Notes under the pieces: model-generated
What the model was told of the DNA's origin: nothing
Databases searched by the model: none
What the model saw: only the letters and a program-made list of their open reading frames with translations
Part shown: piece by piece, positions 253-59,930 of the stretch
Layout of the letters: each line of letters begins with the position of its first letter
How positions within the stretch are numbered: the stretch's first letter is position 1
Position numbers and translations under genes: made by a program
DNA from: a virus
Strand: one strand, 5' to 3'
DNA length: 64,000 bases
IMG/VR virus record: IMGVR_UViG_3300025133_000026

Positions 253-290
253 AAGGGGAGACTTAAACGTCTCCCCTTACTTTGTTTCTT
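253..290 (+). terminator. Rho-independent terminator
   Basis: Stem aaggggagac / gtctcccctt with a 6-nt loop, followed by a T-rich tract, just after a stop codon. Confidence 0.75.
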
Positions 291-701
291 ATGTCACCAC
301 CTATTAAAATCTTCTTTTCAGCTTATATTTATAGTGCTCTTAAAAAAGATAAACTTATTCTTAGAGATCGATGGAAGTCTCATGCTACAGAAAATAATCA
401 ACAAATTTTCTTCTGTAGATTTACAAAAGAGAGAACTCTTCAATATTTAAAAGAAGATCGTGTTGTATATCAGTTGGGGCACTTTACAACTTTCAATAAA
501 AAAGGTCAAATAAGTAAACCCTATGCTCCTTTTTCTATTGAAAGTGTTTCTGTTAATTTAGATAAAAGCTGTTATGTCTTTCCAGACTGGTCTTCTCAGA
601 CTTATGTTTATCATGGAATATCATACGATTCAAAAGAAAAAATGGAAGTTGTTCTGTTTAAAGAACTAATGCTAGGAGAACAAAATGCCAGTAATCAGTA
701 A
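282..701 (+). CDS. Hypothetical protein with the shared C-terminal motif
   Basis: ORF packed with its neighbours; tail EVVLFKELMLGE. Confidence 0.7.
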   Translation: MFLMSPPIKIFFSAYIYSALKKDKLILRDRWKSHATENNQQIFFCRFTKERTLQYLKEDRVVYQLGHFTTFNKKGQISKPYAPFSIESVSVNLDKSCYVFPDWSSQTYVYHGISYDSKEKMEVVLFKELMLGEQNASNQ

Positions 702-996
702 TTGGAGCATTGTCCAAAAACATGAAGATAAAATAGATGGAGTGTGCCGAATTAAAGGCACTGTTAAAAACCATCGTTATATTCTTGACGGTAAACTTAT
801 CGTCTCTTCTCCAATTCAAACTATTGAATGGAAACAAGGTATTGTCATGACTCTAAATACCGCTTATATGCTTAGTGATTCTCCAAGTAGAGTCTGGGCA
901 CTTTGGACTAAGAAGTATGACAAAGAGACATATGACAATCTTTTAGAATTGGGCTTTACAATTCCAAAAAAGAAAGAGAAGAAAAATGATTCTTGA
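685..996 (+). CDS. Hypothetical phage protein
   Basis: Overlaps flanking ORFs in an operon-like way; no recognised motif. Confidence 0.7.
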   Translation: MPVISNWSIVQKHEDKIDGVCRIKGTVKNHRYILDGKLIVSSPIQTIEWKQGIVMTLNTAYMLSDSPSRVWALWTKKYDKETYDNLLELGFTIPKKKEKKNDS

Positions 997-1273
997 CTTT
1001 CTTTTAGGAGCTTTAATAACTTTGGGAATAAATACATTTCTCGGGTTGTTCTCTGCCTCAATATTTATGTCTACGCTTATGGAAACTGCCGAAACTAGCA
1101 AGGCTATTGTCTTTCTTGAAGGTCTTCTTAATAAAGCAGAAATATATCTAAAAAAGACTTGGTTATTTAGAAACTTTCCAGAAATAGCAGCATATATTGT
1201 TTCGTTGATATTTATGAATCTTTGGGCTTTTTGGACACCAGTCTGCTTATATCATTTTTTAACTAATGGATAA
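986..1273 (+). CDS. Hypothetical membrane protein
   Basis: Two hydrophobic segments; coupled start/stop overlaps. Confidence 0.7.
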   Translation: MILDFLLGALITLGINTFLGLFSASIFMSTLMETAETSKAIVFLEGLLNKAEIYLKKTWLFRNFPEIAAYIVSLIFMNLWAFWTPVCLYHFLTNG

Positions 1274-1463
1274 AGCTTTACAAATTATTTGGTGGATAGT
1301 TCTAATACTTATAATTGGAATGGGCGGTGCCTATCTAAAACTGATGGGTATTCCCCAAATACTTCTATTTATATTTACTATCTTCTTTATATGGCTTTAT
1401 CATTTAACACATCCATTCATTCCATTCATTAAGTCTGATAAGGAAACACAATCAGATGAATAA
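1266..1463 (+). CDS. Small two-TM membrane protein
   Basis: Two hydrophobic helices and a short charged tail. Confidence 0.7.
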   Translation: MDKALQIIWWIVLILIIGMGGAYLKLMGIPQILLFIFTIFFIWLYHLTHPFIPFIKSDKETQSDE

Positions 1464-1683
1464 GATAATCACTGTACTTTATGCAAAAGAATTTAATTGT
1501 TTTAGAGTTAAGACAATTACTGGCAAAAAAGTAAGAACACAATCTTTCCCTTGTAGTAAAGGGTTGATGACTTGTTCAGAACAAGAAGTGGCGGCTGTCG
1601 CAAGGCGTGAATTCTTCAATTCTTCATTCCGACCGCGTCCTACCTTTAACTTTATTTATAAGGAAATAGGGTGGAGATTCTAA
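1456..1683 (+). CDS. Hypothetical protein
   Basis: Overlapping ORF in a contiguous + strand array. Confidence 0.6.
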   Translation: MNKIITVLYAKEFNCFRVKTITGKKVRTQSFPCSKGLMTCSEQEVAAVARREFFNSSFRPRPTFNFIYKEIGWRF

Positions 1684-2081
1684 AACTAGATAAAGCTGAT
1701 GCTGTTCAATATTTAGAGGTTCATGGCTTTTCTTCAGATGCTATTCAATATATGTTGCTTTCTATGAAAGAACACCCAGAATGGGGAATATATAAAGGAA
1801 TTTATAAATGGCCAGAAGAAGACGAGCCAATTTATGTTGACAAACCAGGATGGTGGCTTTTTCTAGACTACAAACCTCGACATTTGGATTATATTGTTTT
1901 ATTTCCTGACATAAAAAACAAATTCACACAAGAAATAGATAAAGAATTACTACCTCCTGATTTTCTTTTCATTAATTGCAATGCTCACCCAAAAAGACAA
2001 CGAAGAGTTTGTTTAAAAACTCAACTTCTTGAATTAGAATACAAACAACTCTTAACTAAAGATAAACCAAATGAAAACTAA
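1671..2081 (+). CDS. Hypothetical protein with the shared C-terminal motif
   Basis: GTG start; tail LLELEYKQLLTKDK. Confidence 0.7.
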   Translation: MEILKLDKADAVQYLEVHGFSSDAIQYMLLSMKEHPEWGIYKGIYKWPEEDEPIYVDKPGWWLFLDYKPRHLDYIVLFPDIKNKFTQEIDKELLPPDFLFINCNAHPKRQRRVCLKTQLLELEYKQLLTKDKPNEN

Positions 2082-3611: not shown

Positions 3612-3992
3612 GTGTATTACAAGGCTAAGGATCAGGCGCTTAATAACGATCATGACTATCATATCGCAGCTATCTTGTGGAGAAAGAAGTCTCCTATCAG
3701 AATTGGTGTCAATTCTAAGAAAACCCATCCTGCTGCTCGTCGTCAATATTCTTGTGGGCCACGATTTGTTCATCACCTTCATGCCGAAATGCATGCTCTC
3801 TTGAATACAGATACTACAAAAAATGATGTTCTTGAAGTCATGAGATGGACTAAGGATGGTCAACGGACAATGAGCAAGCCTTGCGAGCACTGTATGAAGG
3901 TTATTAGAGCTTCTGGAATTAAAAAGGTTCGTTATACAGACTGGGATGGAACCTGGACAGAAATGAATCTCTGCGCAATAAGTATGAGATAA
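3612..3992 (+). CDS. Zn-dependent cytidine/dCMP deaminase-superfamily protein
   Basis: HAE (LHAEMHAL) and PCxxC (KPCEHC) motifs, followed by GIKKVRY. Confidence 0.85.
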   Translation: MYYKAKDQALNNDHDYHIAAILWRKKSPIRIGVNSKKTHPAARRQYSCGPRFVHHLHAEMHALLNTDTTKNDVLEVMRWTKDGQRTMSKPCEHCMKVIRASGIKKVRYTDWDGTWTEMNLCAISMR

Positions 3993-4405
3993 GAAAAACT
4001 ATCTTTCAATGGAAATCTGCCCCTTCTCAAAAAGAAGTATGGCAATTTATAGTTAACATAAAAGGCCATATCGCCTTCAAACCTGCGTTCAGAATTCCAT
4101 GCGCTGCTGAGGATCCTCTTCTTCTTCCAAGTAAACAGTTCCAGGGATCTGGTATTTATTGTTTAAAAGAAACGACAGTAGACTTTATTTATTATGTCTC
4201 TCTTGTTGGTTATGTAAATGAAAATAGTTTATTTGATAATATTCCTGGGAAAAACTATTGTGGGTATATAAAAAATAAAAAATTCAGTGCCTGTGATGGA
4301 ATCACTGCTTCTTGGAGTATAGACAACAAGAAAATTATCCCCTGGAAGGGTTATCGAAAAGCCCTGACCAACAAAGAATATAGAGAATTAATGTGTCCCA
4401 AATAA
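3971..4405 (+). CDS. Uncalled hypothetical protein (no ATG/GTG/TTG start seen), paralogue of 4393..4848
   Basis: Frame open from 3923 to TAA 4403-4405: ...EIRKTIFQWKSAPSQKEVWQF...FQGSGIY...NIPGKNYCGY...KEYRELMCPK*. It aligns with the downstream ORF. The start (CTG 3971?) is uncertain. Confidence 0.7.
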   Translation: MRNKYEIRKTIFQWKSAPSQKEVWQFIVNIKGHIAFKPAFRIPCAAEDPLLLPSKQFQGSGIYCLKETTVDFIYYVSLVGYVNENSLFDNIPGKNYCGYIKNKKFSACDGITASWSIDNKKIIPWKGYRKALTNKEYRELMCPK

Positions 4406-4848
4406 CTCATAAAGAACTAAAAGAAATTTTATTTGATTGGCCTTCTGCATTTGCTCCTACACATAAAGAAATAAACCAATTTATAATAGATATTCAAGAT
4501 ATTCCTTGTTATCTTATTCCTGTAAGAATACTTGAGTCTATGGACCGAACAGAGAACAGGATTATTAAAGATGGACAATATTGGGCTTTACCATTAGAAT
4601 ATTTTGAAGGACCTGGAATTTATATAACTGACGAAAGACCTTTAACAAAAAATCATGACAATGACGTTTCATATTATGGAGCAGATCGTCGTAATAGAAA
4701 CATTCCAAACAAAAACTATTCTGGTTTTTCTGGAGAAGAAAAGTTTTTAGCTGTTGAGGGCTACATTCATTTTCCATACTCTGGGGGTAGTCTTCCCACC
4801 TATATAGAATCACTTCTTTTAAAAGAGTTAATCTTAGATGACAGTTGA
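4393..4848 (+). CDS. Hypothetical protein with the shared C-terminal motif
   Basis: GTG start; FDWPSA..PTHKEINQF, FEGPGIY, NIPNKNYSGF; tail ESLLLKELILDD. Confidence 0.75.
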   Translation: MSQITHKELKEILFDWPSAFAPTHKEINQFIIDIQDIPCYLIPVRILESMDRTENRIIKDGQYWALPLEYFEGPGIYITDERPLTKNHDNDVSYYGADRRNRNIPNKNYSGFSGEEKFLAVEGYIHFPYSGGSLPTYIESLLLKELILDDS

Positions 4849-5359
4849 AACTTTAATCGCCAAGCTTAAAAAACTTCCATCAAAAACAATAGTTATTGTT
4901 CAGGAATATGACAGCTTAGATAATATAGCTAGACCAATCAAAGTAGTTGAAAAGATTACTAAAGCTGACTTACCCGAACACTTAAGAGATGTTACAATTA
5001 AGAATAAAAAAAACTTAATTATCTTAAGTGCTTGGGGTAATGGCGAAGCACCTGCATCGCAATTTATTCCAATCAAGACAGAACAGAAACTTCAGTCTTT
5101 CATTCTTCATGCAAAAAAGAATGGCATTCCATTATCACTAATCAAGGAATGGATTCAAAAGAATGAGCTGCCTCCGAAGAATAAAAAGAAAGCTACTCGT
5201 AAAGTTCAAAAGACCTCAGGACGCACAGAAATATTACCTAAATCCGCTAAAGAATTACACAGTGATAATGCTAAGCGGCTCACCCCCAAACCCAACAGTC
5301 CAACTCGCAGAAAGAAGAGGAGTGTGGATCCCAATGTGGGAACTGGAAATAATAGATGA
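4838..5359 (+). CDS. Hypothetical protein with a basic disordered tail
   Basis: Coupled ORF; K/R/P-rich C-terminus. Confidence 0.65.
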   Translation: MTVETLIAKLKKLPSKTIVIVQEYDSLDNIARPIKVVEKITKADLPEHLRDVTIKNKKNLIILSAWGNGEAPASQFIPIKTEQKLQSFILHAKKNGIPLSLIKEWIQKNELPPKNKKKATRKVQKTSGRTEILPKSAKELHSDNAKRLTPKPNSPTRRKKRSVDPNVGTGNNR

Positions 5360-5661
5360 CTCTTGATACTGAACCATATAATAAATTTATAGAAATATCT
5401 AATATTCTCTTTGGCGAAGCAGAGATTGTTTCGGTGCAAGAATTCATGAAACGAACTCTTGTTCAGGGAGCGCCGCCTCCGGAAAACCTTAATGTTTGTG
5501 TTAACTCTTATATGAGAGTTATTCGAAATTTTAAAACAGTTGCTCTGGGTCGACCCGACAGTATCTGTCTTCAAAAAGAATCACCTTTAGACCTATGGGC
5601 TTGGCACAAACTCATTGACATAGAATATAAACTTACAATGACAGAGACAGATAATGCCTGA
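5356..5661 (+). CDS. Hypothetical protein with the shared C-terminal motif
   Basis: ATGA overlap; tail LIDIEYKLTMTE. Confidence 0.7.
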   Translation: MTLDTEPYNKFIEISNILFGEAEIVSVQEFMKRTLVQGAPPPENLNVCVNSYMRVIRNFKTVALGRPDSICLQKESPLDLWAWHKLIDIEYKLTMTETDNA

Positions 5662-6318: not shown

Positions 6319-6665
6319 ATTCAACACCGCCCTTAAAAGACTTACTTCCTAAAGATATTGAGCCTCAACCTATCTGTCCAGAAGGTATGCGAAAATTCAC
6401 TATCTTTCGACGTGGAGATGAGTCTAATGTTTCAGGTACTGGAAAAATTATTCAAGGAGTATTGTTTGCCGATGGGAAAGCAGTCATTCAATGGCTTGCA
6501 GGACCAGACCCTGGTGACACTCAAGTCAAAAATAGTTTTGAGAAGTTCTTAGAAACACACATTATTCCCCATCCGGGGAATAGAACTATTCTAACCTGGG
6601 AAGATGGTATTCAAATATTCTTTCCGGAGGAAGACAACGAAGCCACAGGGTCCACAACATCCTAA
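6300..6665 (+). CDS. Conserved phage protein of unknown function
   Basis: R.F...R..D.S.VSGTG....GV.F.DG....W pattern recalled from many phage hypothetical proteins. Confidence 0.65.
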   Translation: MAEINLNSTPPLKDLLPKDIEPQPICPEGMRKFTIFRRGDESNVSGTGKIIQGVLFADGKAVIQWLAGPDPGDTQVKNSFEKFLETHIIPHPGNRTILTWEDGIQIFFPEEDNEATGSTTS

Positions 6666-7065
6666 GATAATAGGTGAGGGAATTTCTAAAGACCCTTGGC
6701 TTTTAAACGGCTATACTCTTAGAAACCTAACACACGAAGACACTATAGCAAAATATATGAAAGACACTGGGTTAGCATTTTCCATACCCCTTCTAACTAG
6801 AAGACCTCGAAATGGAAATCACCAAACTTTTCATAAGTTTAAAAACAACACCCCTTCTGGTTGGTATCTTTTAATGGAGACTCGGACACTATTCAAAATA
6901 ACAGATGGTTATCTCTGCAATAAAGGAGATATTGGGATTTGGGCAGTTTCTGTATTTGGTCTCAAAACTCATGGACTATATACTTATAAGTCATGGGTCT
7001 CTTCGAATGAAATTGAGATTAATTCCTTACTTTATAAAGATATGATGATTGGTAAAACATTGTGA
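6604..7065 (+). CDS. Hypothetical protein with the shared C-terminal motif
   Basis: Tail INSLLYKDMMIGK; the true start is probably downstream of 6604. Confidence 0.65.
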   Translation: MVFKYSFRRKTTKPQGPQHPKIIGEGISKDPWLLNGYTLRNLTHEDTIAKYMKDTGLAFSIPLLTRRPRNGNHQTFHKFKNNTPSGWYLLMETRTLFKITDGYLCNKGDIGIWAVSVFGLKTHGLYTYKSWVSSNEIEINSLLYKDMMIGKTL

Positions 7066-7083: not shown

Positions 7084-7989
7084 TTGATGCTAAGACTATT
7101 ATTCTTACTAATGTCATCTTTAGGATGTAACGACACCACTTTTACCCATACAGTTATCGAGGAAGTTCCAACTTATATCGAACCACAAGTAGAAGTCTTT
7201 AATGCAGGAACTTCCATTACTCGCGCAGACTTTCTTGTAGTTCTTGATGTTTCTGGCTCAATGTCACAAGTCAACAACCACCTTTCAGAAGGACTTACTC
7301 CTTTTGTAGATGCTTTACTAGCCATACAGGATGACCTTGACTGGCGACTTACTGCAGTAAGTGCTGATTCTGATTACGTCGAAATAGATGATTGGATAGA
7401 AGCACACGATGTTGAATTCCCCTCCATGGCCGTGGCAGACTTGCAGGTTATGGTAGAGAGAGGTGGAGCTGAAGAAGGATTCTTAGCTGGCTACTCTGCT
7501 TATCATTTGGACACAGAGTTCTTTAGAGACAATGCGGACTTGTTGTTCATCTTTATTTCTGACGAAGACGAGCAATCAAGTATTCCTGTCTCCGATTGGA
7601 CAGGGTGGCAGGCAACATTGCGTTCTTATCCATATGAAGTACACAATAGTGCTATCACAACTTTTTATGAAAACTCCTGTGGTTATGGAGTAGGTCAAAA
7701 ATATATTGATGTATCTTCTGCAACAGTTGAAATTTGCAGTCCAACTGGTTGGGCTGAAGCCGCCAACCCAGTCTTAGACAGAGTTAATCCTCTTGAAGAT
7801 GTTTTTTACTTAGATCAAGAACCAGATCCAGATACGATTAGAGTATGGGTTAATAATACAGAGTATTCTCAACCTAATTGGCAATATGATATTAATGAAT
7901 GGAAAGTAGTTCTGTCTTTCACACCACCTTCAGGGAGTTCTGTTGTCATCTCATACTACCTTGTTCAAGGAGATACTGGAGCTTCTTGA
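7084..7989 (+). CDS. Exported vWA-domain lipoprotein
   Basis: Signal peptide with lipobox-like SLGC; MIDAS DVSGS (FLVVLDVSGSMS); FISDEDEQS; acidic composition. Confidence 0.8.
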   Translation: MMLRLLFLLMSSLGCNDTTFTHTVIEEVPTYIEPQVEVFNAGTSITRADFLVVLDVSGSMSQVNNHLSEGLTPFVDALLAIQDDLDWRLTAVSADSDYVEIDDWIEAHDVEFPSMAVADLQVMVERGGAEEGFLAGYSAYHLDTEFFRDNADLLFIFISDEDEQSSIPVSDWTGWQATLRSYPYEVHNSAITTFYENSCGYGVGQKYIDVSSATVEICSPTGWAEAANPVLDRVNPLEDVFYLDQEPDPDTIRVWVNNTEYSQPNWQYDINEWKVVLSFTPPSGSSVVISYYLVQGDTGAS

Positions 7990-8311
7990 AAAAAGCGATA
8001 AATATATCCTTATAAGAAAGGTGGCCAGTTACACTAAGCCACATTATATAAACGTTTATAATAATAAAACAGCAGATACATTTACTCTTCATTCAGATCT
8101 AGATGTGGTTTTTTCTAACTTTGGGAAAATTTCTTATGAAGACTTCTATTATCAACTTCTTATGGAGGAATCTCCTATAGAGACCCAAAAAGTTGATAAA
8201 AAAGATGAAGTTAAATATAAAAGAACTTACTTTATTCATGGTGTTCCTTATGAAAAAGAAAAATTCTTAGAAGAACTTGAATATAGAAAAATAATGTTAG
8301 GCAAAACATGA
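7943..8311 (+). CDS. Hypothetical protein with the shared C-terminal motif
   Basis: Tail FLEELEYRKIMLGK; start uncertain. Confidence 0.65.
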   Translation: MSSHTTLFKEILELLEKSDKYILIRKVASYTKPHYINVYNNKTADTFTLHSDLDVVFSNFGKISYEDFYYQLLMEESPIETQKVDKKDEVKYKRTYFIHGVPYEKEKFLEELEYRKIMLGKT

Positions 8312-9552: not shown

Positions 9553-10191
9553 ATGGAACTAATACATAGAAGATACTCTTTTTACTCTTTTGCTAAAACA
9601 AATTATCTTCCTACAAGTCTTACTTTTTATACTTCAGAATTGCCAGATGCTACTGAATACAAATTAATTCTTATAGAGTCAGAGTTTAAGACTAAAACTA
9701 AGATAAGGTTCTCTTTCTCTTTAGATAAATGTATTCCAGATTTCAGTATTGTTAAATCTTTTTTAGGCATTTTCTTTCTCTCACCAAAAGAACGTAAAGT
9801 ATTTACTCATAAGAAACTAAAAGAATATCAACTCTCTATTCCTCAAGATATAAGAATAGAACTTGAAGAAAGTTGGAATCTTATTAAAGATAATGAAACT
9901 CACCTTGCCTTTTTTAACGATATTATGAAAATAAAAAACAAAGAATGTAATGCAATAATGGTAAGAAATGGACATAGGGAATTCATAGAGTCCAGATCTG
10001 GAGTATACAAAAGACTGGCATTAAACGAGCGATCACTCATACCGTTATCTCTAACAGTTTATCGTTCTATTGATGATATTAAATTTATGAAGTCTCAAGC
10101 TGATGAAATTATTTATCAAAGACTTATGCAGGGAAAGAAATTACCTACACACTATCTTAATTACGAAATAGATCTTGGAGAAGATATATGA
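9553..10191 (+). CDS. Hypothetical protein with the shared motif near the C-terminus
   Basis: ATG 9553 follows the rnh stop; DEIIYQRLMQGK. Confidence 0.65.
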   Translation: MELIHRRYSFYSFAKTNYLPTSLTFYTSELPDATEYKLILIESEFKTKTKIRFSFSLDKCIPDFSIVKSFLGIFFLSPKERKVFTHKKLKEYQLSIPQDIRIELEESWNLIKDNETHLAFFNDIMKIKNKECNAIMVRNGHREFIESRSGVYKRLALNERSLIPLSLTVYRSIDDIKFMKSQADEIIYQRLMQGKKLPTHYLNYEIDLGEDI

Positions 10192-26599: not shown

Positions 26600-26938
26600 T
26601 TGTTTATGATTATAAAATCTTACACTGATTCAGAATGTGTTGTCCTTTGTATCTTCTGTACTATAACTTATCGTTTAATAAGTAATTTTATTTTAGAGTG
26701 TTCTCTTGATCATGGCAATGGGGCTCATGATTATATAATCATGAGGCCTGGCGATAATATTATTCCAGGAGATCTTATTGCCTCAAACTGGTTATACCCA
26801 CTCACCAAGTGGCAAGAAAATCTTAAGAAAGAAATAATAGAAATTGAATATAAATATATAACTATAGGGAAAGAGTTTCCTAAGATACTTCAAATACTGC
26901 AGGAAAGGATTAAACGATGGGATACATCAGAGAATTAG
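26600..26938 (+). CDS. Hypothetical protein, tandem family A
   Basis: IIEIEYKYITIGKEFPKILQIL. Confidence 0.65.
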   Translation: MFMIIKSYTDSECVVLCIFCTITYRLISNFILECSLDHGNGAHDYIIMRPGDNIIPGDLIASNWLYPLTKWQENLKKEIIEIEYKYITIGKEFPKILQILQERIKRWDTSEN

Positions 26939-27237
26939 ACCTGCCACCTGGCAGTAAATATAGATGTATATACGGTGTTCATCTTAAAATTAAAAGAAAG
27001 AGGGAGCACTATACTGGATGGACTTTTTATGCTTCTGCAGACCATCTCAACAGATGGAGACTAACACCTACTCTAGGGTATGGAAAAACATATTTGTCTT
27101 CCGAAGCACAAGAAGAATTTGTAAAAATTCTCCTTAACCTAGAGTATGAGCACCTAACTTCTGGTGATAAGACTTACTTCCCTAATCTATATCCAGTACT
27201 GAGAAAATTAGAAAATGATGCAGATAAAAAAGGTTGA
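26917..27237 (+). CDS. Hypothetical protein, tandem family A
   Basis: LLNLEYEHLTSGDKTYFPNLYPVL. Confidence 0.7.
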   Translation: MGYIRELDLPPGSKYRCIYGVHLKIKRKREHYTGWTFYASADHLNRWRLTPTLGYGKTYLSSEAQEEFVKILLNLEYEHLTSGDKTYFPNLYPVLRKLENDADKKG

Positions 27238-27466
27238 AGATATCTATGAATGGAAACCTATCCATATTCATATAGAAAAAAATAGTTATCAACTGTCAAC
27301 AGAGTGGTCTCGAAATGAATCGGTAACAAACCTCTCGCCTTTTTATCGAAAAGATTTATTAAATTGCTTGCAAAACTTACAATACAAAGCTATAATAACT
27401 GAAGATAAAGAGTTCTTTCCAGAACTCTTACCACTATTAAAAGCATTAGAAGAAATAGATCAATAA
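27215..27466 (+). CDS. Hypothetical protein, tandem family A
   Basis: LQNLQYKAIITEDKEFFPELLPLL. Confidence 0.7.
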   Translation: MMQIKKVEDIYEWKPIHIHIEKNSYQLSTEWSRNESVTNLSPFYRKDLLNCLQNLQYKAIITEDKEFFPELLPLLKALEEIDQ

Positions 27467-27469
27467 TTA

Positions 27470-27796
27470 ATGACTGAAAAATATATTCTCAAAGTAAAAA
27501 CCTGGGCCCCAATTAGTTTTCATAAAAATGAAGATGATAGAATCATTGCTTTCGCAGACAAGCCGCGCAAAAAATATATTCTATCAGAAAAACCACTCTA
27601 TCTTTCAGGGTTTGACGGCTGGGCTGATCATTGGTTATGCAAAACAAAAGAAACTTTAGAAGATTCAATATATGAGTCTCTTCTTTGTGGCAATAAAGAA
27701 CAATTAGATTTAATAGAAAGACTTTTATTTCTTACCAAGAAAGCAATTTATTTTCAAACTATTAGTAATCGAAAAAATATATATCAAAATGAATAG
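27470..27796 (+). CDS. Hypothetical protein with the shared motif
   Basis: LEDSIYESLLCGNKEQLDLIERLL. Confidence 0.65.
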   Translation: MTEKYILKVKTWAPISFHKNEDDRIIAFADKPRKKYILSEKPLYLSGFDGWADHWLCKTKETLEDSIYESLLCGNKEQLDLIERLLFLTKKAIYFQTISNRKNIYQNE

Positions 27797-28037: not shown

Positions 28038-28066
28038 ACACAAATAAAAATAACAGGATAAATCAT

Positions 28067-28937: not shown

Positions 28938-28947
28938 AAAGGGAGAG

Positions 28948-29274: not shown

Positions 29275-29345
29275 GATGACTCTTAAAGAGTTCTTCGGAT
29301 TATCTGAAGACAAAATAAAACAACATGTAGAAAACAGGAGAAAAA

Positions 29346-29687: not shown

Positions 29688-29705
29688 ACATAGAGTAACT
29701 CTCAA

Positions 29706-29740: not shown

Positions 29741-29756
29741 ATTGAAAAGAGAACGC

Positions 29757-29915
29757 GTGGACAAATTCAAAAATATAGAGCCCAACCTTATTGAATTGTT
29801 TAAATTTATTCGTCAGTTCTATCCTAAATTAGAGCAAGAAATTGTATACAAAGCTCTTCTTACCGACAAGAAGAGTAAATTTGTACAATATATTCTAGAA
29901 GAAGGAGAAGAATAG
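29757..29915 (+). CDS. Uncalled 52-aa ORF with the shared motif
   Basis: GTG 29757 to TAG 29915: MDKFKNIEPNLIELFKFIRQFYPKLEQEIVYKALLTDKKSKFVQYILEEGEE. It abuts the next start. Confidence 0.6.
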   Translation: MDKFKNIEPNLIELFKFIRQFYPKLEQEIVYKALLTDKKSKFVQYILEEGEE

Positions 29916-30233
29916 GTGATAAACTGGGGAAGTCCTTCCAATATAGTTTTATCCAAGATTGATTTAAGACCTGGATTCTCCTGGAGACTTACTTACAAAT
30001 GTTGGGGTTGGCATATACACTTCTTTCATAAAAGCAATGGTACTTGGTATTGGCAACACAATCCAGACATACTTAGCTACGCACGACCATTAACAATTCC
30101 CCCCGAGCCTGTACGTCGAGAGGAATTTAAAAATTGGATAAAAGATAAACTTTATATTCAGTTAATAACCCCAACAAAAAACAATGAACTTATAGAGGTT
30201 TTAGAAACAATGCTTGTTGAAGCAGAGGATTGA
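29916..30233 (+). CDS. Hypothetical protein, tandem family B
   Basis: W.LT..C.G.H....KS..W; FKNWIKDKLYIQLIT..ELIEVLE. Confidence 0.65.
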   Translation: MINWGSPSNIVLSKIDLRPGFSWRLTYKCWGWHIHFFHKSNGTWYWQHNPDILSYARPLTIPPEPVRREEFKNWIKDKLYIQLITPTKNNELIEVLETMLVEAED

Positions 30234-30576
30234 GGTGGGTTTGCCACCACCATATAAAATGAAGCTAGAGAAAGTTAAAAACACTTGGGTTTTAACTTTT
30301 CGTACATTTGGAAACCATTGTATTTCTATTAACAAATCACAAGAAGGATGGTTCTTCGAGACTATCGGCAGAGGTCTTGCCATAACAGATTCTATCGACA
30401 AGCTTCTTCTTCGAACATATCTATCTCATTATCCATATCTATATAGATTTAAAGCATGGCTAGAAGAAGAACTCTATACAGCATGGATGACAGATAATCC
30501 CGAACACTTAGAGATTTTGGAAATTCTATTAAATAATACTAAAAAGCATATACAGCGGTGGGAAACAAAACTATGA
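30214..30576 (+). CDS. Hypothetical protein, tandem family B
   Basis: WVLT....G.H....KS..W; FKAWLEEELYTAWMT..EHLEILE. Confidence 0.65.
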   Translation: MLKQRIEVGLPPPYKMKLEKVKNTWVLTFRTFGNHCISINKSQEGWFFETIGRGLAITDSIDKLLLRTYLSHYPYLYRFKAWLEEELYTAWMTDNPEHLEILEILLNNTKKHIQRWETKL

Positions 30577-31079: not shown

Positions 31080-31081
31080 TT

Positions 31082-31450
31082 TTGTTCAATATGTCTGTTA
31101 CTTACTCATGGCCGCCACCATCACGAGTTAAATACTATTTTTTCTTTGAAGAAAAAGAACTCTCTTTAAAGAGAGTTCTTATTATCTCTTCCTCTAGAAA
31201 ACCTGCTTATTTATGTAAAGTAAGCTCTCTTATCTATGGAGGAAAGAATCGCTGGCGTGCGCCTGAAGATGTTGTGTGGAGAAATCTTGAAGAAAGTCTT
31301 GCATTGAAAACATCTTTTTATTGCAAAGCTCTTCAAGAGGCAGCAAAAGAAAAATATTACAAGCTCATTATGAATAATTTAGATAATTGGATACTTCAAC
31401 CTCTTCAAGAATTGATAGATATAGACCTTAGTCAGATTGTGAGAGACTAA
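31082..31450 (+). CDS. Hypothetical protein with the shared motif
   Basis: AKEKYYKLIMNN. Confidence 0.6.
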   Translation: MFNMSVTYSWPPPSRVKYYFFFEEKELSLKRVLIISSSRKPAYLCKVSSLIYGGKNRWRAPEDVVWRNLEESLALKTSFYCKALQEAAKEKYYKLIMNNLDNWILQPLQELIDIDLSQIVRD

Positions 31451-45710: not shown

Positions 45711-46216
45711 TGTCTAAGCTTCATGGTCTATTCCTCGACAGGGATGGGGTTCTTAATGTGAATACACATTACCCTCACCTTGTCGAGGATCTTTACATTC
45801 CCGATGGTGTTTTTGAGGCCTGTACTTTATTAAAGTATTATCAAAATAAAATTCGACCAATAGTAGTGACCAATCAAAGTGGTGTTGGGCGTGGGCTTTA
45901 TACTAAAGCAGAATGTTTAGAATTTGAAGAGCACCTTGCTAATGAAATCTATATACATTCTGGACTTAATATACCTAAAGAAAACTGGTACCACGCATGG
46001 GACACTGCCTCTCCTGACTATAAACCTTCTCCCAACATGATTCTACAGGGTATGAAAGATCATAACTTAAAACCCAAAAACTGTGTGCTCATTGGAGACA
46101 AACAGACTGATGTTGACGCCGCGATGGCAGCAGAACTTAGTCTTGGCTATCTCATTTACACCAATAATGGTGAACACTTCCTTGAAGCTGTAATGGAAAC
46201 TTTATTAAAATTATGA
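45710..46216 (+). CDS. gmhB: HAD phosphatase, GmhB (heptose-1,7-bisphosphate phosphatase)-like
   Basis: FLDRDGVLN, VVTNQSGVGRG, KPSP.M, IGDKQTD. Confidence 0.85.
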   Translation: MSKLHGLFLDRDGVLNVNTHYPHLVEDLYIPDGVFEACTLLKYYQNKIRPIVVTNQSGVGRGLYTKAECLEFEEHLANEIYIHSGLNIPKENWYHAWDTASPDYKPSPNMILQGMKDHNLKPKNCVLIGDKQTDVDAAMAAELSLGYLIYTNNGEHFLEAVMETLLKL

Positions 46217-46473
46217 ACAAAGGACTCCTCTGGTCTCAAATAGCCAGTCATATAGAATCATCTATAGCCCCCGCTCTCGCAACACATCAAGGCTCTTGCG
46301 AATTAAAAGATATTGAATTAACAAAAGACGAAGATCTTGTTGTTTATATTCAATACCAAGGAGCTTGTAATGGCTGTGCTTATTCAGAGACAACTACATT
46401 ATCTATGATTCAAAATCTCCTTAGAGAAGAACTCAATGATCCAAGAATAGTTGTAGAGAAATGGAATGAGTAA
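46213..46473 (+). CDS. NifU/NfuA C-terminal Fe-S carrier domain
   Basis: I.P.L..H.G..EL, VYIQYQGACNGC, TT..MIQ..L. Confidence 0.85.
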   Translation: MNKGLLWSQIASHIESSIAPALATHQGSCELKDIELTKDEDLVVYIQYQGACNGCAYSETTTLSMIQNLLREELNDPRIVVEKWNE

Positions 46474-46672
46474 GCAAAAGAAAAGCAGCTGGGAGAATAT
46501 AGAGATTCTCGAGCTGGGTGGTTTTATTATTGAATACGACAAGTCTGACAATACACTTACAGTAAATACAAAGTTTGAATGCGAGGTAGATTGCATTCAT
46601 TTGAGTAACTTTATTGAAGAAATAGATGAATGCAAAACCGTCATAATTAAAGGGCCAGAATGGAACGAATAG
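46466..46672 (+). CDS. Hypothetical protein
   Basis: Small acidic ORF in the array. Confidence 0.55.
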   Translation: MSKQKKSSWENIEILELGGFIIEYDKSDNTLTVNTKFECEVDCIHLSNFIEEIDECKTVIIKGPEWNE

Positions 46673-47034
46673 TTACAAAACACTGGTATATCCAACTTCG
46701 TATAGCAACAGGAACACAGAAAAAGAAATGTCTTTATGCTGGAGAGGGTTGTTGTAATACAGTAACAAAACAAAGAACAGTTCCCACTGGTAGTCATTGG
46801 ACCTGTACAAATGGAAGGTGGAAACGGTCTAACACAAAGAAAGAAAAAAGAACTTACCATTCTACAGTTAAAGGAACCAAGCTTTTATGCTTTAGTATAA
46901 AGCATAAACATCATCTTGTATGCACAGCTTGTTGGCCTAGATTGATTAAAGAATTAGCAATGATGCCAACTCAAGTAACAGAATTTGATTATGAATTAAT
47001 GATGAAAGGACTAACAGATGAGCATAACGAATAA
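46660..47034 (+). CDS. Cys-rich hypothetical protein, tandem family C
   Basis: KC.Y...GC.NT, KGT.L, VCTACWPR, FDYELMMKG. Confidence 0.7.
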   Translation: MERIVTKHWYIQLRIATGTQKKKCLYAGEGCCNTVTKQRTVPTGSHWTCTNGRWKRSNTKKEKRTYHSTVKGTKLLCFSIKHKHHLVCTACWPRLIKELAMMPTQVTEFDYELMMKGLTDEHNE

Positions 47035-47419
47035 TAGACTATGTGTTAAAACCTTTACGGTGAATAATAAGCTTCATAAATGTGACTATGTAGAAAAGGG
47101 TTGTGTTAATACAGAGATCATAACCAAGAAAGTACCAATTAGAAAAAGAGTACAGAAACAATACAAAAAAGGATACACTCGTTGGGGTCAAAGCCGGTAT
47201 TGGACGTGGAAAACTACAGGCCACAACAAGGTTAAAAAACATTACACTAGAAAAGGCACTATGCTCTTTCAATTAAAAACAGGTTCTTACGGTGGATATA
47301 ATATTCTTAAAGTATGTCCTGACTGTTGGCCCAGGGCTATCCAAGAGATACAGGACCTGCCTTCAATTGACTTCCAATACACTACGACAATGAAGGAATT
47401 TGCAAGTGGCGAAGAATGA
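47018..47419 (+). CDS. Cys-rich hypothetical protein, tandem family C
   Basis: KCDY...GC.NT, KGTML, VCPDCWPR, DFQYTTTMK. Confidence 0.7.
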   Translation: MSITNNRLCVKTFTVNNKLHKCDYVEKGCVNTEIITKKVPIRKRVQKQYKKGYTRWGQSRYWTWKTTGHNKVKKHYTRKGTMLFQLKTGSYGGYNILKVCPDCWPRAIQEIQDLPSIDFQYTTTMKEFASGEE

Positions 47420-47732
47420 TATATTTCGTGAAGAGGACTGGGAGCTTATAAGAACTGAAAGGGAATGGATCGACCGCTGGAATAAAGTTGGCGGCGAGAA
47501 CAAAAAACGCTCCCGATCTGATGTAGACTGGCCTCAAAGCTATCCTGTTCTTGTTTGGTTTCAAAGAGAATATGATGAATATTTTGATGAGGGTTGGGCG
47601 TGGCCCAATTTCTTTTATCCTCTCAATCATATATGCACTAACTGCCAACATACAGAACCCATCTGGCCAGAAACTGGCGACGATAATATAGATTATGAAT
47701 TATTAATGGAGAAAACAAATGAGATTAAGTAA
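47400..47732 (+). CDS. Hypothetical protein with the shared motif
   Basis: CTNC; tail NIDYELLMEK. Confidence 0.65.
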   Translation: MQVAKNDIFREEDWELIRTEREWIDRWNKVGGENKKRSRSDVDWPQSYPVLVWFQREYDEYFDEGWAWPNFFYPLNHICTNCQHTEPIWPETGDDNIDYELLMEKTNEIK

Positions 47733-54762: not shown

Positions 54763-54908
54763 ATAACTACAAAAGAAAGTTTCCGCGTTTAACCTGGGAA
54801 CAAAAAGAAGCTATTAAAGAATATTTTGCTGACAAAGGCGATGTCATTTCTATATTAAAAGCAATACGAAAGAAGAAGGAAACAATTCCAGCTGATGAAA
54901 CTAAGTAA
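54759..54908 (+). CDS. Possible 49-aa ORF
   Basis: ATGA overlap with the previous stop; fills the gap before the primase. Confidence 0.4.
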   Translation: MNNYKRKFPRLTWEQKEAIKEYFADKGDVISILKAIRKKKETIPADETK

Positions 54909-57900: not shown

Positions 57901-58602
57901 GGCGATGAAGCAATTAATCTCGCTCAGCTTTTGTTTATTCCTGGTGCAAAAGGAAACAAGTGTAAGCAATTGGCTAGTCTTTCCAGACTGAATAAAAACA
58001 AACATGATCATTTGCCAATTCTGTTTACTGAGCGCCTTAAAGAAATTACAACAAAGGCAAGAATAAATATAAATGACGGAAGAGAGCTAGGGTTTCAAGT
58101 AAGAGACGGTCATAGAGTTACAAGATCTATTGGCTCTAAATTAGCAAGCTCCTTAAAGGACAAAGGATTACAAGCCATACTTAATGAACAGTTAAGGTGG
58201 GTGAACATTGTCAAGATTGAAAAACTGGACAAAGAACAAGTCTGGGATTTAACAATTGATGGAACTCATAACTTTATTGCCAATAATATTATTGTTCATA
58301 ACACCAGGGCCTTCAATTACCGAGCTAAGTGGATTGGACACATCTATAATGATATGCACGAACGACAGGAAGATTATGATACTTTTCATATCGACCCAAT
58401 GACGAAGAAACCAATGCCTCGCATCCTTTTACTCCACTCAAAAAATAAGATTAATGGTTTTAAAGAGATTACTGTTCACGACTTCTTTCCTCACCTTAGT
58501 ACTTTCAAATGGAAAGATGAAAGTGAGGCCAAACTAGAAGCCAAGAAATATCTAGAAGACCTTAAAGAAGAGGAAGAATATGATCAAGACGAAAATTGGT
58601 AG
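54895..58602 (+). CDS. DnaG-DnaB primase-helicase fusion, intein-containing
   Basis: CINPHH..CFGC Zn finger; Toprim VEGYTD and LDWDAAG; Walker A GEANAGKS; LDN Walker B. Confidence 0.92.
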   Translation: MKLSKAITELKLLLPQYLKDQDIVSSKSKKFACINPHHKDSTPSASLYPGSDYTEGRCFGCVTNFDIFTAAHWLEGMPQEGPEWVSTTVSTLCERYDIPLELEPLTDAQKASKAALAAFQEAARILTTHTVWSKDCEEYINKNKWKKEVLLHRGVGCLSREILTLEMSKKGYSAEYLRTLGLLGEHNCPFDGEQLVFTVYNHRGQALGFSYRTWDGKQKYVNPHMYGYGTESLKKGETLYGLDKARRCTDQPLILVEGYTDVLTLNHKGINNVAAICGTALTKEQILLLESVGFHSIVLALDWDAAGQIGIRRAIDLLMKESQDLDISIIGKTDKTEGLDPSDFVLQHGKKGWLALPNLSAFSWLLQDRLTGQTPKRKLAEDMVRIIALESSAITREEYTKELANTTGVSIHALDIEVGKQLNKRERQRNKIEKNIIERMALDLDKFPDHRISILSEAAGNIEKVRNDYESGKYSSRGVLSLLRTQKIKEESIDPSVGLGFKMNLMPQLAKCFEGGKDWASDTLMLLGGEANAGKSSLMSNIAFDIAHSNKDATVIYFSIDDSGRDILPKFLCNAHVSNLGRLPTSKFEELSIGAIINPGRWASMLPSKGHKERFFDFRQQAYNLIENLVKEDRFLIKDATDGATLEYMEAVIRFHRGKYPSRRIFCVLDNTHNLQDYGGKDMRERFSKIADTMNNICNKYSVCMLASVEYKKRSGGMRGGKLLPKNEDIAECMTGDSLVFTTQGLKRIDQIIPGNIVYTKDENNRIVTNKVLAKLDKGVQQVYKVMLKGGRTIKVTGNHPFFTEKYKWNKLSELSVGDFVALPSEIPQPKSCSNPINNDIARLLGYMAGDGCYALKSTPRFTNRDKGIIKDIKTIVQDRFKLGASERLHNGSLHLRFTNGRQGCKVKNPLTEYLKTLDIWGQTGMAKNIPTELYSQTNEVISHYISGLIATDGSIDTKKKTIRFFNKSNYLTQGLISLLSRLGIYSTLNNVKNGVNAVCISGDEAINLAQLLFIPGAKGNKCKQLASLSRLNKNKHDHLPILFTERLKEITTKARININDGRELGFQVRDGHRVTRSIGSKLASSLKDKGLQAILNEQLRWVNIVKIEKLDKEQVWDLTIDGTHNFIANNIIVHNTRAFNYRAKWIGHIYNDMHERQEDYDTFHIDPMTKKPMPRILLLHSKNKINGFKEITVHDFFPHLSTFKWKDESEAKLEAKKYLEDLKEEEEYDQDENW
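57091..58302 (+). mobile_element. Intein (Hint plus LAGLIDADG endonuclease), 404 aa
   Basis: CMTGDSLV; VTGNHP; LLGYMAGDG; ISGLIATDGS; VWDLTIDGTHNFIAN.IIVHN followed by +1 Thr. Confidence 0.93.
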
Positions 58603-59470
58603 CATGGCCTTGGGCATCATTGTAGGTATTATCCTAGCAATAGGACTTGCCTTTGGAGTTGCACGGCGGGCTAACGCCAGAATGATTATGCTTGATGATC
58701 AACTGACAGCAGAGAAACAGCTTTCTCAAGAAGTCTTGCGTACTAAAAACAAAGAAGTCTATAATCTTGAAAAACATATTAAAGATTTAGTAAAATCAAA
58801 TGATGGTTTGAAAGAAGATATCAAAGAACTCGAGGCCAATCCTGTTGTTGTGACGCATACAGAGGTCATCATTAAAGGGGAGACAACAGAAGAAACTGTG
58901 GACCACTTTCCTGAAGAGTGGGACTATCGAAATGCAAACAATCTTCTTGTTGCTTCTCACCTCTATAATGAGGATCTTTCTTCTTTCTCTGCAACTACTT
59001 ATGACTTAACAGTGAGTGTTCAAAACCTTATCGCAACGATACCAACAGGAGAATCAGTAACATACAGCACTGTTACTGTTACTTCTTCTGGTGATGATAG
59101 TAGTGTTCAGTTAGTACCAAAGTCAGTCGAAACCATTTATGAAGACCAAACACAATCTAGATGGCACTGGTGGGCGCCGCACATTGATGGCGGCATTAGT
59201 GCCACCCCCATGTCCTATGGACCAACTCTTGGTTTCTCTCCAACAGCAATAGGGAAGACTAAAGACGACAATACCATCAGGCTCTTTCATGTCAGAGGTG
59301 TTGTCACCAATGACGAAAACCTTCATGTCGGTTTTGACCCCGGCGGAATCCCTGTATTTAAACAAATAAATTTTATCCCATTAAATGACACATGGTTATG
59401 GGTAGGAGTAGACTACAATGTCAGAACTGGGGGAATTTTACCAGCAGCTGCTGTCACATCAACATTCTAG
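58580..59470 (+). CDS. Membrane-anchored coiled-coil plus beta-rich protein
   Basis: N-terminal TM, coiled coil, then beta-strand-like segments. Confidence 0.7.
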   Translation: MIKTKIGSMALGIIVGIILAIGLAFGVARRANARMIMLDDQLTAEKQLSQEVLRTKNKEVYNLEKHIKDLVKSNDGLKEDIKELEANPVVVTHTEVIIKGETTEETVDHFPEEWDYRNANNLLVASHLYNEDLSSFSATTYDLTVSVQNLIATIPTGESVTYSTVTVTSSGDDSSVQLVPKSVETIYEDQTQSRWHWWAPHIDGGISATPMSYGPTLGFSPTAIGKTKDDNTIRLFHVRGVVTNDENLHVGFDPGGIPVFKQINFIPLNDTWLWVGVDYNVRTGGILPAAAVTSTF

Positions 59471-59474
59471 TTCT

Positions 59475-59930
59475 TTGGAGTTTGATACAAACATTGAGGT
59501 CGATTTAATTCAAGCGTTGATCAGAAATGGATCAAACTACATTACAGAATCTATCATCCTAAAAAGGGGATCGATTACTCCCCTAATAAATTATTTTCTT
59601 GTTTGGCCTGAAACTCATTTATTTCAAAACCTTTATCAAGAAGAAAGATGCTTAATTATTCCAACACCAATTTGTAAAATTTACTCAGTAAAATCTCAAA
59701 GAGATGTGAAGTCAATATATCAAATGGGAAGGAGAACTCCTTTTTCTTTCTCTACAGGGATGACTCAAACTACTTTTAGTATGAGTATTTCTCAAGACCT
59801 AGCCAGACAACCATATATCATTGAAGTTCAAAACATTCTTTATCTCAAAACTCCTAGTAATGTTATAGATCTTTATAAAGATGATATATATAAACACATG
59901 ATGACTGGAGAGACCCATGCCAATCTTTGA
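59475..59930 (+). CDS. Hypothetical protein with the shared C-terminal motif
   Basis: TTG 59475; tail YKDDIYKHMMTGE. Confidence 0.65.
   Translation: MEFDTNIEVDLIQALIRNGSNYITESIILKRGSITPLINYFLVWPETHLFQNLYQEERCLIIPTPICKIYSVKSQRDVKSIYQMGRRTPFSFSTGMTQTTFSMSISQDLARQPYIIEVQNILYLKTPSNVIDLYKDDIYKHMMTGETHANL

What the first reader, a model, noticed from the sequence alone, without database searches (positions are those of the whole stretch)
282..59930. A shared C-terminal helical tag on about 20 small, mostly unrelated phage proteins
Near-terminal segments align across ORFs scattered through the window. 282 EVVLFKELMLGE; 1671 LELEYKQLLTKD; 3971 TNKEYRELMCPK; 4393 ESLLLKELILDD; 5356 IDIEYKLTMTET; 6604 NSLLYKDMMIGK; 7943 EELEYRKIMLGK; 9553 DEIIYQRLMQGK; 26600 IEIEYKYITIGK; 26917 LNLEYEHLTSGD; 27215 QNLQYKAIITED; 27470 EDSIYESLLCGN; 29757 QEIVYKALLTDK; 29916 KDKLYIQLITPT; 30214 EEELYTAWMTDN; 31082 KEKYYKLIMNN; 46660 TEFDYELMMKG; 47400 DNIDYELLMEK; 59475 KDDIYKHMMTGE. 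The consensus is phi-x-x-phi-x-Y-[KRE]-x-phi-phi-x-[GDE]-K. It is absent from the tails of the recognisable enzymes, and the N-terminal parts of different clusters share nothing obvious. Inference: a modular docking or addressing peptide that recruits diverse cargo proteins to one partner. Candidate roles are capsid loading/co-injection, a host machine, or the phage MoxR-vWA/ClpP machinery.
Basis: partly seen in the sequence, partly recalled or inferred. Interest (0 to 1): 0.85.

Follow-up and report, generated by a model that had tools for sequence, protein, structure and literature searches.

The report
Shared end-helix of expanded phage paralogs
The shared "Y-K-x-L-M" ending is real, but it is mostly the conserved last helix of two or three large, previously undescribed families of small proteins that one uncultured marine phage has multiplied to about 35 copies, not a tag on unrelated cargo.

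Summary
All 19 peptide strings exist near the C-termini of + strand ORFs. A scoring matrix trained only on 15 family members outside the window finds the motif in the tails of other proteins far more often than chance: 13 hits against 1.4 expected. It is not enriched in protein bodies. It occurs in 26 of 171 + strand proteins and 0 of 56 - strand proteins.

"Mostly unrelated" does not hold:
- Four carriers belong to family A, which has 19 copies in the 151-kb genome. Family A is one LH-x-x-G-P-A / Y-Y-x-N-G hairpin repeat plus the helix.
- Eight carriers form family B, which is full-length paralogous and carries an extra helix after the motif.
- Two carriers belong to a zinc-knuckle trio.
- Five are singletons.
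- Eight of the 19 are not individually above chance.

Families A and B align only over the 19-residue helix (P = 5.5e-4).

AlphaFold places the helix inside a compact family A domain (pTM 0.80, helix pLDDT about 95). Codons vary synonymously, so the signal is at the protein level. The final G-[EK] often doubles as the next gene's ribosome-binding site.

None of these proteins has a full-length relative outside this phage lineage, and none matches Pfam or PHROGs.

Best reading (0.55): a structural capping helix of a lineage-specific expansion of small early proteins. A common docking helix stays possible (about 0.2). The scan has found similar expansions in other large phages.

The parts
291..701 (+). 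Family A member; motif at 645-680. Its G-E codons at 675-680 lie 10 nt before the ATG of the next gene at 685.
   Evidence: HMM E = 8e-16 to family A. Held-out hairpin score 9.4. Distance to the next start.
3923..4405 (+). Family A-like ORF with no ATG/GTG/TTG start; motif at 4367-4402, ending at the stop.
   Evidence: HMM E = 3.8e-13. BLAST paralogue of 4393-4848, E = 9e-11. Startless.
4393..4848 (+). Divergent family A member; motif at 4807-4842 with L in place of Y.
   Evidence: Joins family A by iteration from the 3971/4393 pair.
7943..8311 (+). Family A member; motif at 8270-8305.
   Evidence: In the 14-member BLAST cluster. Matrix score 17.8. The AlphaFold C-terminal hairpin plus helix 105-119 has pLDDT 82-92.
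26606..26938 (+). Family B member; motif at 26837-26872, followed by a second helix.
   Evidence: Leave-one-out rank 2 of about 232. Alignment A3.
26917..27237 (+). Family B member; motif at 27133-27168.
   Evidence: BLAST paralogue of 27218-27466. Leave-one-out rank 2.
27218..27466 (+). Family B member; motif at 27371-27406.
   Evidence: Matrix score 7.7, p = 0.0015. Leave-one-out rank 1.
27470..27796 (+). Probable family B member; weak motif at 27659-27694.
   Evidence: Leave-one-out rank 8. The motif alone is not above chance, p = 0.69.
29757..29915 (+). A 52-residue minimal family B form made of helices only; motif at 29835-29870.
   Evidence: Leave-one-out rank 2. The motif alone gives p = 0.21.
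29916..30233 (+). Family B member; motif at 30141-30176.
   Evidence: Leave-one-out rank 1, E = 6.6e-6. Its body is related to that of 30235-30576, E = 6.5e-4.
30235..30576 (+). Family B member; motif at 30463-30498.
   Evidence: Leave-one-out rank 1, E = 3e-5.
31091..31450 (+). Family B member; motif at 31346-31378.
   Evidence: Matrix score 6.9, p = 0.006. Leave-one-out rank 5. Shares the N-terminal proline-rich element.
1671..2081 (+). Singleton carrier; motif at 2028-2063.
   Evidence: Matrix score 8.9, p = 0.001. Only the motif aligns to family A.
5356..5661 (+). Singleton carrier; motif at 5614-5649.
   Evidence: Matrix score 7.4, p = 0.002.
6604..7065 (+). Singleton carrier; motif at 7021-7056.
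   Evidence: Matrix score 6.2, p = 0.0055. No homologue outside its own genome.
9553..10191 (+). Singleton carrier of 212 residues; motif at 10102-10137.
   Evidence: Matrix score 7.0, p = 0.006. The language-model look-up points to Rep-like clusters (score 0.93), which is a lead only.
59418..59930 (+). Singleton carrier; motif at 59877-59912.
   Evidence: Matrix score 5.5, p = 0.0095. Its G-E codons lie 10 nt before the next start.
46660..47034 (+). Zinc-knuckle (C-x-x-C) family member with a weak motif at 46978-47010.
   Evidence: BLAST paralogue of 47018-47419. C-x-x-C seen. Motif p = 0.044.
47018..47419 (+).
47406..47732 (+). Zinc-knuckle protein with a weak motif at 47682-47714.
   Evidence: C-x-x-C seen. 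Motif p = 0.02.

Best explanation
The motif is the conserved C-terminal amphipathic helix of a lineage-specific expansion of small proteins. The expansion lies in the non-structural (+ strand) arm of a large uncultured marine phage, at least 151 kb long. About 34-37 genes carry the motif, roughly 15% of the gene set.

The carriers:
- Family A, 19 copies. Each has a variable N-terminus, an F-x-G-x-G-x-Y turn, one LH-x-x-G-P-A / Y-Y-x-N-G beta-hairpin repeat, then the helix [WF]-x-x-E-x-Y-[KR]-x-[LI]-M-[LI]-G-[EK].
- Family B, about 10 copies. Each has a small beta body, the helix, then a second helix.
- A zinc-knuckle trio with a degenerate version.
- Five singletons.

Shown here: the helix sits inside a compact predicted domain in family A. 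Conservation is at the amino-acid level. The copies are old paralogues, partly in tandem, and restricted to this phage lineage.

Inferred: the broad hydrophobic face (positions -5, -1, 0, +3, +4, +5) packs on the protein's own beta sheet as a fold-stabilising cap. G at +6 ends the helix. The variable N-terminal parts and sheet surfaces bind different host or phage targets early in infection, in host takeover or counter-defence. The set grew by duplication and divergence. That growth left the cap as the only element still recognisable between families.
For: Family structure. The BLAST cluster has 14 members and HMM iteration brings it to 18-19. Family B is coherent in leave-one-out tests, and five of its ten members share an N-terminal proline-rich element.

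Structure. A typical family A member gives an AlphaFold model with pLDDT 86.8 and pTM 0.80. It has five strands, then helix 101-115 at pLDDT about 95, with no linker.

Conservation pattern. The conserved positions are the hydrophobic ones plus K/R at +1. Positions -3, -2 and +2 are variable and polar, which is the pattern of a packed amphipathic helix. Body positions such as the G of the F-x-G-x-G turn are as conserved as the helix.

Outside relatives. They are multi-repeat proteins that also end in a T-K-E-E-[WF] helix start after the last Y-x-N-G hairpin. So the first half of the motif is an ancestral cap of that repeat.

Protein-level signal. Codons vary synonymously.

Placement and age. 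Hits fall in 26 of 171 + strand proteins and 0 of 56 - strand proteins. Nearest paralogues are often neighbours but only 27-50% identical.

Restriction to the lineage. No full-length relatives appear outside this phage in 1.84 billion representatives, nor in the word-indexed searches.
Against: Families A and B share only the 19-residue helix (hhalign P = 5.5e-4). The 40 residues before the motif in non-A carriers show no family A signal (Mann-Whitney p = 0.15). Body-only HMM scores are marginal (at most 2.5 bits, p = 0.007). Common descent of all carriers is therefore not shown. A helix that stays conserved while its supposed packing partner diverges beyond recognition hints at a constraint outside the body.

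Minimal forms of 41 and 52 residues hold little more than the helix region.

I could not inspect model coordinates, so packing is inferred from pLDDT and pTM only. No family B member or singleton was modelled. No function was tested.
Confidence: 0.55

Rival explanations
1. Portable docking or address helix. The helix is a common interaction element that brings about 35 different small proteins to one partner. The partner could be the capsid interior or scaffold, a host machine, or the phage ATPase/vWA pair. The helix was spread or retained across otherwise unrelated bodies.
For: The motif is shared across groups with non-alignable bodies. It is significantly enriched in tails only. Charged K/R at +1 is nearly invariant. 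Minimal 41- and 52-residue forms exist. The startless family A-like ORF sits in the -1 frame of a dCMP deaminase, just after a slippery-like run, so it could attach the module to an enzyme. Precedents exist for shared tags on diverse cargo: the T4 capsid targeting sequence (PMC3012670) and encapsulin cargo-loading peptides (PMC7355545).
Against: In family A the helix is part of a compact, high-confidence domain with no linker. Most carriers are full-length paralogues. No carrier has a recognisable enzyme or cargo domain. The distance to the C-terminus ranges from 6 to 40 residues. All carriers lie in the non-structural arm. No partner was identified.
Confidence: 0.22
2. Oligomerisation helix. 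The shared helix mediates homo- or hetero-oligomers among the paralogues, so the family works as mixed assemblies.
For: The hydrophobic face is broad and conserved, and L at +5 and K at +1 lie beyond a single stripe. Family B adds a second helix, giving a helix-turn-helix hairpin that could form bundles.
Against: The monomer model of a family A member is already compact at pTM 0.80. No heptad-long coiled coil is present, since the helix has only about 15 residues. Nothing was tested directly.
Confidence: 0.1
3. No protein feature. The pattern comes from chance, from tail composition, or from a nucleic-acid signal at gene ends such as the ribosome-binding site or promoter of the next gene.
For: Eight of the 19 listed tails are not individually above chance. 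In 10 of 24 family A and singleton tails the +6/+7 codons lie 8-13 nt before the next start codon. In most of them they contain a GGA- or GAG-type ribosome-binding core. A de novo motif search on non-A tails did not beat shuffles.
Against: An independently trained matrix gives 13 tail hits against 1.4 expected. Y, K/R, L/I and L codons vary synonymously, and third-position identity (0.49) is below second-position identity (0.65). In family B the motif lies 60-100 nt from the next gene. Non-carrier coupled genes almost never encode G-[EK] in the ribosome-binding zone (1 of 67 against 5 of 28).
Confidence: 0.05

Closest known systems
Lineage-specific expansions of small proteins in large phages. 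One example is the roughly 35-copy zinc-ribbon family of Bacillus phage G (Iyer et al. 2021, PMC7824862). This scan has noted similar giant small-protein families in other jumbo phages (e1-154137, e1-249401, e1-5595657).
   Same: There are dozens of deeply diverged copies of a small protein in one phage genome. They are partly tandem, confined to one lineage, variable at the N-terminus and share one short conserved motif. Function is unknown.
   Different: The sequence family is different: a single LH-x-x-G-P-A / Y-Y-x-N-G hairpin repeat plus the Y-K-x-L-M-L-G helix. Here the same helix motif also appears in a second family and in singletons whose bodies do not align.
Uncurated LH-[RS]-x-D-G-P-A ... 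Y-[YW]-x-N-G-K repeat proteins. The profile search found 356 representative clusters. From memory they resemble MORN-variant or YwqK-like repeats.
   Same: The family A core aligns to this repeat, including the T/S-K-E-E-[WF] start of the helix after the last hairpin.
   Different: Family A has a single repeat, its own F-x-G-x-G-x-Y element and the Y-K-x-L-M-L-G extension, none of which I saw in the outside proteins I read. Neither Pfam nor NCBIfam names these proteins. The MORN/YwqK resemblance is recollection, not a test.
T4 capsid targeting sequence of internal proteins (PMC3012670)
   Same: The concept is the same: diverse, fast-evolving small phage proteins share only one short conserved segment.
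   Different: The T4 sequence is N-terminal, and by established knowledge it is removed by the prohead protease on virion proteins. Here the motif is C-terminal, helical, inside a folded domain and encoded in the non-structural arm. Packaging was not tested.
Encapsulin C-terminal cargo-loading peptides (PMC7355545)
   Different: From my own knowledge, not from a passage I read, encapsulin peptides are short extensions on recognisable enzymes and are usually encoded next to the shell gene. Here there is no linker, no enzyme cargo and no carrier in the structural arm.

Membership tests
Lineage-specific paralogue expansion of a large phage | Many mutually homologous copies in one genome | tested here: met
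   Family A has 19 members by BLAST and iterated HMM. Family B has 8-10 by leave-one-out HMM.
Lineage-specific paralogue expansion of a large phage | Restricted to one lineage, with no full-length relatives elsewhere | tested here: met
   A profile search of 1.84 billion representatives returns full-length hits only from this phage's own proteins. Word-indexed searches for family A, family B and 6604 return only own-genome proteins. Distant DnaE relatives lack the motif in the flanks fetched.
Lineage-specific paralogue expansion of a large phage | Tandem or clustered arrangement with some nearest paralogues adjacent | tested here: met
   Adjacent best-hit pairs are 3971/4393, and outside the window -12943/-12244, -5684/-5320 and -2995/-2688. 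Family B occupies 26606-31450.
LH-x-x-G-P-A / Y-Y-x-N-G repeat proteins (uncurated) | Significant profile match to the repeat unit | tested here: met
   This holds for family A only. There are 356 representatives at E <= 1e-3, many with 4-12 matched stretches to profile positions of about 58-104. Family B and the singletons show no such signal.
Pfam MORN_2 / YwqK-type repeat | Match to the curated model | tested here: inconclusive
   Neither Pfam nor NCBIfam returned a family for family A members or for ten outside repeat proteins at permissive thresholds. I did not compare against that model directly.
T4-type capsid targeting sequence | Short conserved leader at the N-terminus of the carriers | tested here: not met
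   The shared segment is C-terminal, and the N-termini are the most variable part.
T4-type capsid targeting sequence | Carriers are packaged in the virion and processed by the prohead protease | not testable with these tools
   This needs virion proteomics.
Encapsulin-type C-terminal cargo-loading peptide | Peptide appended through a flexible linker to an independently folded cargo domain | tested here: not met
   For family A the model is one compact domain, and the helix follows the last strand directly at pLDDT about 95. This was not tested for family B or the singletons.
Encapsulin-type C-terminal cargo-loading peptide | Cargo genes lie next to the shell gene | tested here: not met
   None of the 56 proteins of the - strand arm, which earlier notes describe as structural, carries the motif.
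C-terminal protease degron (ssrA-like) | Signal at the extreme C-terminus, at a fixed distance from the free carboxylate | tested here: not met
   The conserved Y lies 6-38 residues from the end in family A, 21-40 in family B and 9-24 in the singletons.

The most novel reading that the evidence does not exclude
The helix is a true address element. About 35 otherwise different small proteins use the same C-terminal helix to dock on one hub, for example the procapsid interior or scaffold for co-injection, or a host machine. A -1 frameshift from the dCMP deaminase gene into the startless family A-like ORF may also attach the module to an enzyme. That would be a C-terminal, helical counterpart of the T4 capsid targeting sequence.
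Probability: 0.2. Interest if true: 0.75.

Novelty: new member of a known kind. Interest (0 to 1): 0.38.

Why it matters
About one gene in seven of this marine phage belongs to undescribed small-protein families held together by one helix. Expansions of this kind are thought to be where large phages keep their host-takeover and counter-defence tools. They are invisible to Pfam and PHROGs.

Defining the families, their shared helix and their limits gives a clean set of targets for expression, binding and structure work. It also corrects the tempting but weakly founded reading of a universal cargo tag. If the helix did bind a single partner, it would be a new, engineerable addressing signal.

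Tried and rejected
DNA-level signal. Motif codons vary synonymously, and family B motifs lie far from gene ends. Rejected for the core. Only the final G-[EK] overlaps the next gene's ribosome-binding site.

De novo motif discovery on non-A tails. It returned a C-x-x-C knuckle motif that was no better than shuffles, so this method had no power here.

Body homology of non-A carriers to family A. hhalign aligns only 14-20 columns. Body-only phmmer links only 29916 and 30235. The body HMM is marginal. The anchored hairpin test is negative.

Known families. Neither Pfam, PHROGs nor NCBIfam gives a hit at its curated cut-off or at E below about 5e-4, and the PDB sequence search is empty.

Fold searches with the good family A model. 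Foldseek gives no hit at E <= 0.001, and the best VIA-align Z is 4.3, which is uninformative.

Relatives. Megablast against phages found nothing. DnaE relatives are only about 30% identical and lack the motif. Metagenome copies are 99.6-100% identical, so they are uninformative for selection analysis.

Frameshift stimulator. There is no significant hairpin downstream of the slippery-like run (z = -0.6).

Neither Pfam nor PHROGs recognises ORFs 15729-16487 or 16489-17175.

Full report
CONTEXT. The window is the reverse strand of positions 55162-119161 of a single 151,482-base contig. G+C is about 38%. Nearly all window genes are on the + strand. Recognisable genes include:
- ribonucleotide reductase;
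- a DnaE-type polymerase;
- an intein-bearing primase;
- a second intein-bearing protein;
- GMP reductase/IMPDH;
- PhoH, a Whirly-like protein, SpoVG and a thioredoxin-fold protein;
- a DUF2201 vWA-like protein beside an ATPase.

Near-identical copies occur in several marine metagenomes. The closest DnaE relatives in viral contigs are only about 30% identical. Earlier notes of this scan call the genome an uncultured marine myovirus.

THE OBSERVATION.

For an independent test I first defined a paralogue family from the whole genome. BLAST gives a 14-member cluster. HMM iteration brings it to 18-19. Fifteen members lie upstream of the window.

A 12-column matrix built only from the 15 out-of-window tails was run on the 220 other proteins:
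- Within 25 residues of the C-terminus there are 13 windows of score >=5. Shuffles give 1.4 +/- 1.15, with a maximum of 5 in 200.
- Protein bodies give 3 against 6.6 expected.
- Per-protein tail tests give 11 of 209 at p<0.01 against about 2 expected.

Hits fall only on the + strand arm: 26 of 171 proteins against 0 of 56. The motif is therefore real and tail-specific.

Eight are not: 26600, 26917, 27470, 29757, 29916, 30214, 46660 and 47400. The same test adds two carriers outside the window, at window-relative -15147 and -22149. The family B profile adds a third, at -4678.

PROTEIN OR NUCLEIC ACID. Motif codons differ synonymously: TAT/TAC, AAA/AGA/CGA, and several L and I codons. Third-position identity (0.49) is below second-position identity (0.65). 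In family B the motif lies 60-100 nt from the next gene. So the core is a protein feature.

There is one nuance. In 10 of 24 family A and singleton tails the +6/+7 codons sit 8-13 nt before the next start codon. In most of these they contain a GGA- or GAG-type core, so they probably double as its ribosome-binding site. Non-carrier coupled genes almost never encode G-[EK] there (1 of 67). The motif has therefore been co-opted for this role, not created by it.

WHO THE CARRIERS ARE.

Family A (19 copies) has these parts:
- a variable N-terminus;
- an F-x-G-x-G-x-Y element;
- V-N-E-x-x-x-L-H-S-x-x-x-P-A;
- a Y-Y-x-N-G hairpin;
- the helix [WF]-x-x-E-x-Y-[KR]-x-[LI]-M-[LI]-G-[EK], ending 6-13 residues before the stop in most copies.

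A profile search of 1.84 billion representatives finds full-length matches only among this phage's own proteins. It also finds 356 clusters of multi-repeat proteins that match profile positions of about 58-104 several times each. Their repeat is LH-[RS]-x-D-G-P-A ... Y-[YW]-x-N-G-K. After the last repeat they too begin a helix, T/S-K-E-E-[WF]. The Y-K-x-L-M-L-G half is specific to this phage. Neither Pfam, PHROGs, NCBIfam nor the PDB sequences name any of this.

Family B comprises the eight carriers between 26606 and 31450, plus two outside the window.
- In leave-one-out HMM tests the omitted member ranks first or second of about 232 proteins in six of eight cases.
- Five of the ten members share a proline-rich element near the N-terminus.
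- The Y is invariant.
- A second helix follows the motif.

ORFs 46660, 47018 and 47406 are C-x-x-C zinc-knuckle proteins with only a degenerate motif.

Five carriers are singletons with a significant motif at the very end: 1671, 5356, 6604, 9553 and 59418. None has a detectable relative or domain. A language-model look-up hints at a Rep-like body for 9553, which is a lead only.

ONE SUPERFAMILY OR A PORTABLE PIECE. Families A and B align over just 19 columns, the helix, at P = 5.5e-4. hhalign of family A against each non-A carrier aligns only 10-29 columns around the motif in all but two cases: one aligns 44 columns and one aligns off the motif. The 40 residues before the motif in non-A carriers do not score with a hairpin HMM (Mann-Whitney p = 0.15). 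Three of the four held-out in-window family A members do score. Body-only scores are marginally raised (p = 0.007) but reach at most 2.5 bits.

Common descent of all carriers is therefore neither shown nor excluded.

STRUCTURE. A typical family A member, modelled with 23 aligned sequences, gives pLDDT 86.8 and pTM 0.80. It has a five-stranded sheet, then helix 101-115 at pLDDT about 95, with no linker. The divergent member 7943 gave a poor model overall, but its hairpin and helix were confident. No solved fold matches clearly.

Along the helix the conserved positions are -5, -1, 0, +3, +4 and +5, plus K/R at +1. Positions -3, -2 and +2 are variable and polar. This fits an amphipathic helix with a broad buried face. 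I could not inspect coordinates, so packing in cis is an inference.

MECHANISM. My best reading (0.55) is a structural capping helix of a lineage-specific expansion of small proteins in the non-structural arm. Their variable parts would bind different targets early in infection. Duplication and divergence would have left the cap as the last recognisable element. Nearest paralogues are often neighbours but only 27-50% identical.

- the helix is shared across non-alignable bodies;
- K/R at +1 is nearly invariant;
- minimal 41- and 52-residue forms exist.

Against it stand four things:
- the compact family A model;
- the lack of any recognisable cargo;
- the variable distance to the C-terminus;
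- the absence of carriers from the structural arm.

An oligomerisation role (about 0.1) is also open. Chance or a nucleic-acid signal is rejected for the core.

COMPARISON AND NOVELTY. The kind is known. Large phages carry lineage-specific expansions of small proteins, such as the roughly 35-copy zinc ribbon of phage G (PMC7824862). This scan has met similar cases in other jumbo phages. Another reader has already described this same family in an overlapping window as a dispersed paralogue family with a shared C-terminal helix.

The family itself is undescribed. The sharing of one helix between two families and several singletons is the unusual point. The T4 capsid targeting sequence (PMC3012670) and encapsulin loading peptides (PMC7355545) are functional analogues for the bold reading only. 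Their defining features that could be tested here are not met.

Noticed in passing
window 3612-4405: The family A-like ORF at 3923-4405 has no ATG/GTG/TTG start, and the metagenome copies do not call it as a gene. It lies in the -1 frame of the dCMP deaminase gene (3612-3992). It opens exactly after a -1-frame stop inside T_AAA_AAG (3919-3925), a dnaX-like slippery run. A -1 slip there would fuse most of the deaminase to a family A domain. No significant downstream hairpin is present (z = -0.6). The alternatives are a pseudogene or a non-canonical start.
   Followed up: partly
L001:163-288 (- strand; window-relative -287..-162): A 41-residue mini-ORF consists only of the family A hairpin and helix. 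It is either a remnant or a stand-alone C-terminal module.
   Followed up: no
window 675-687, 8299-8310, 59895-59919 and others: In 10 of 24 family A and singleton tails the codons for the last motif residues lie 8-13 nt before the next gene's start. In most they contain a GGA- or GAG-type ribosome-binding core. This ties the motif's distance from the stop to translational coupling.
   Followed up: yes
window 46213-47732: A run of small C-x-x-C zinc-knuckle proteins occupies 46213, 46660, 47018 and 47406. More lie outside the window at -22149 and -21889. This is a second small-protein expansion.
   Followed up: partly
window 9553-10191: The language-model look-up places this 212-residue motif carrier nearest to Phage_CRI/Rep-like clusters (score 0.93, 164-166 shared features). 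HMM searches do not confirm this.
   Followed up: partly
The neighbouring 17194-18378 matches a phage ATPase family (phrog_1297). ORF 18446-19657 is a DUF2201 metallopeptidase/vWA-like protein.
   Followed up: partly
window 42079-44163 and 54895-58602: Both a calcineurin-like phosphoesterase and the Toprim primase protein carry intein-splicing domains. The primase protein also carries a LAGLIDADG domain.
   Followed up: no
window 28067-28594 and 29346-29687: A Whirly-like single-strand-binding-fold protein and a SpoVG homologue sit in the middle of the family B array.
   Followed up: no
protein database entries P0001, P0154 and others: Identical proteins are recorded on contigs of up to 178,039 bases. 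The 151-kb assembly may therefore be incomplete, and the family counts are lower bounds.
   Followed up: no
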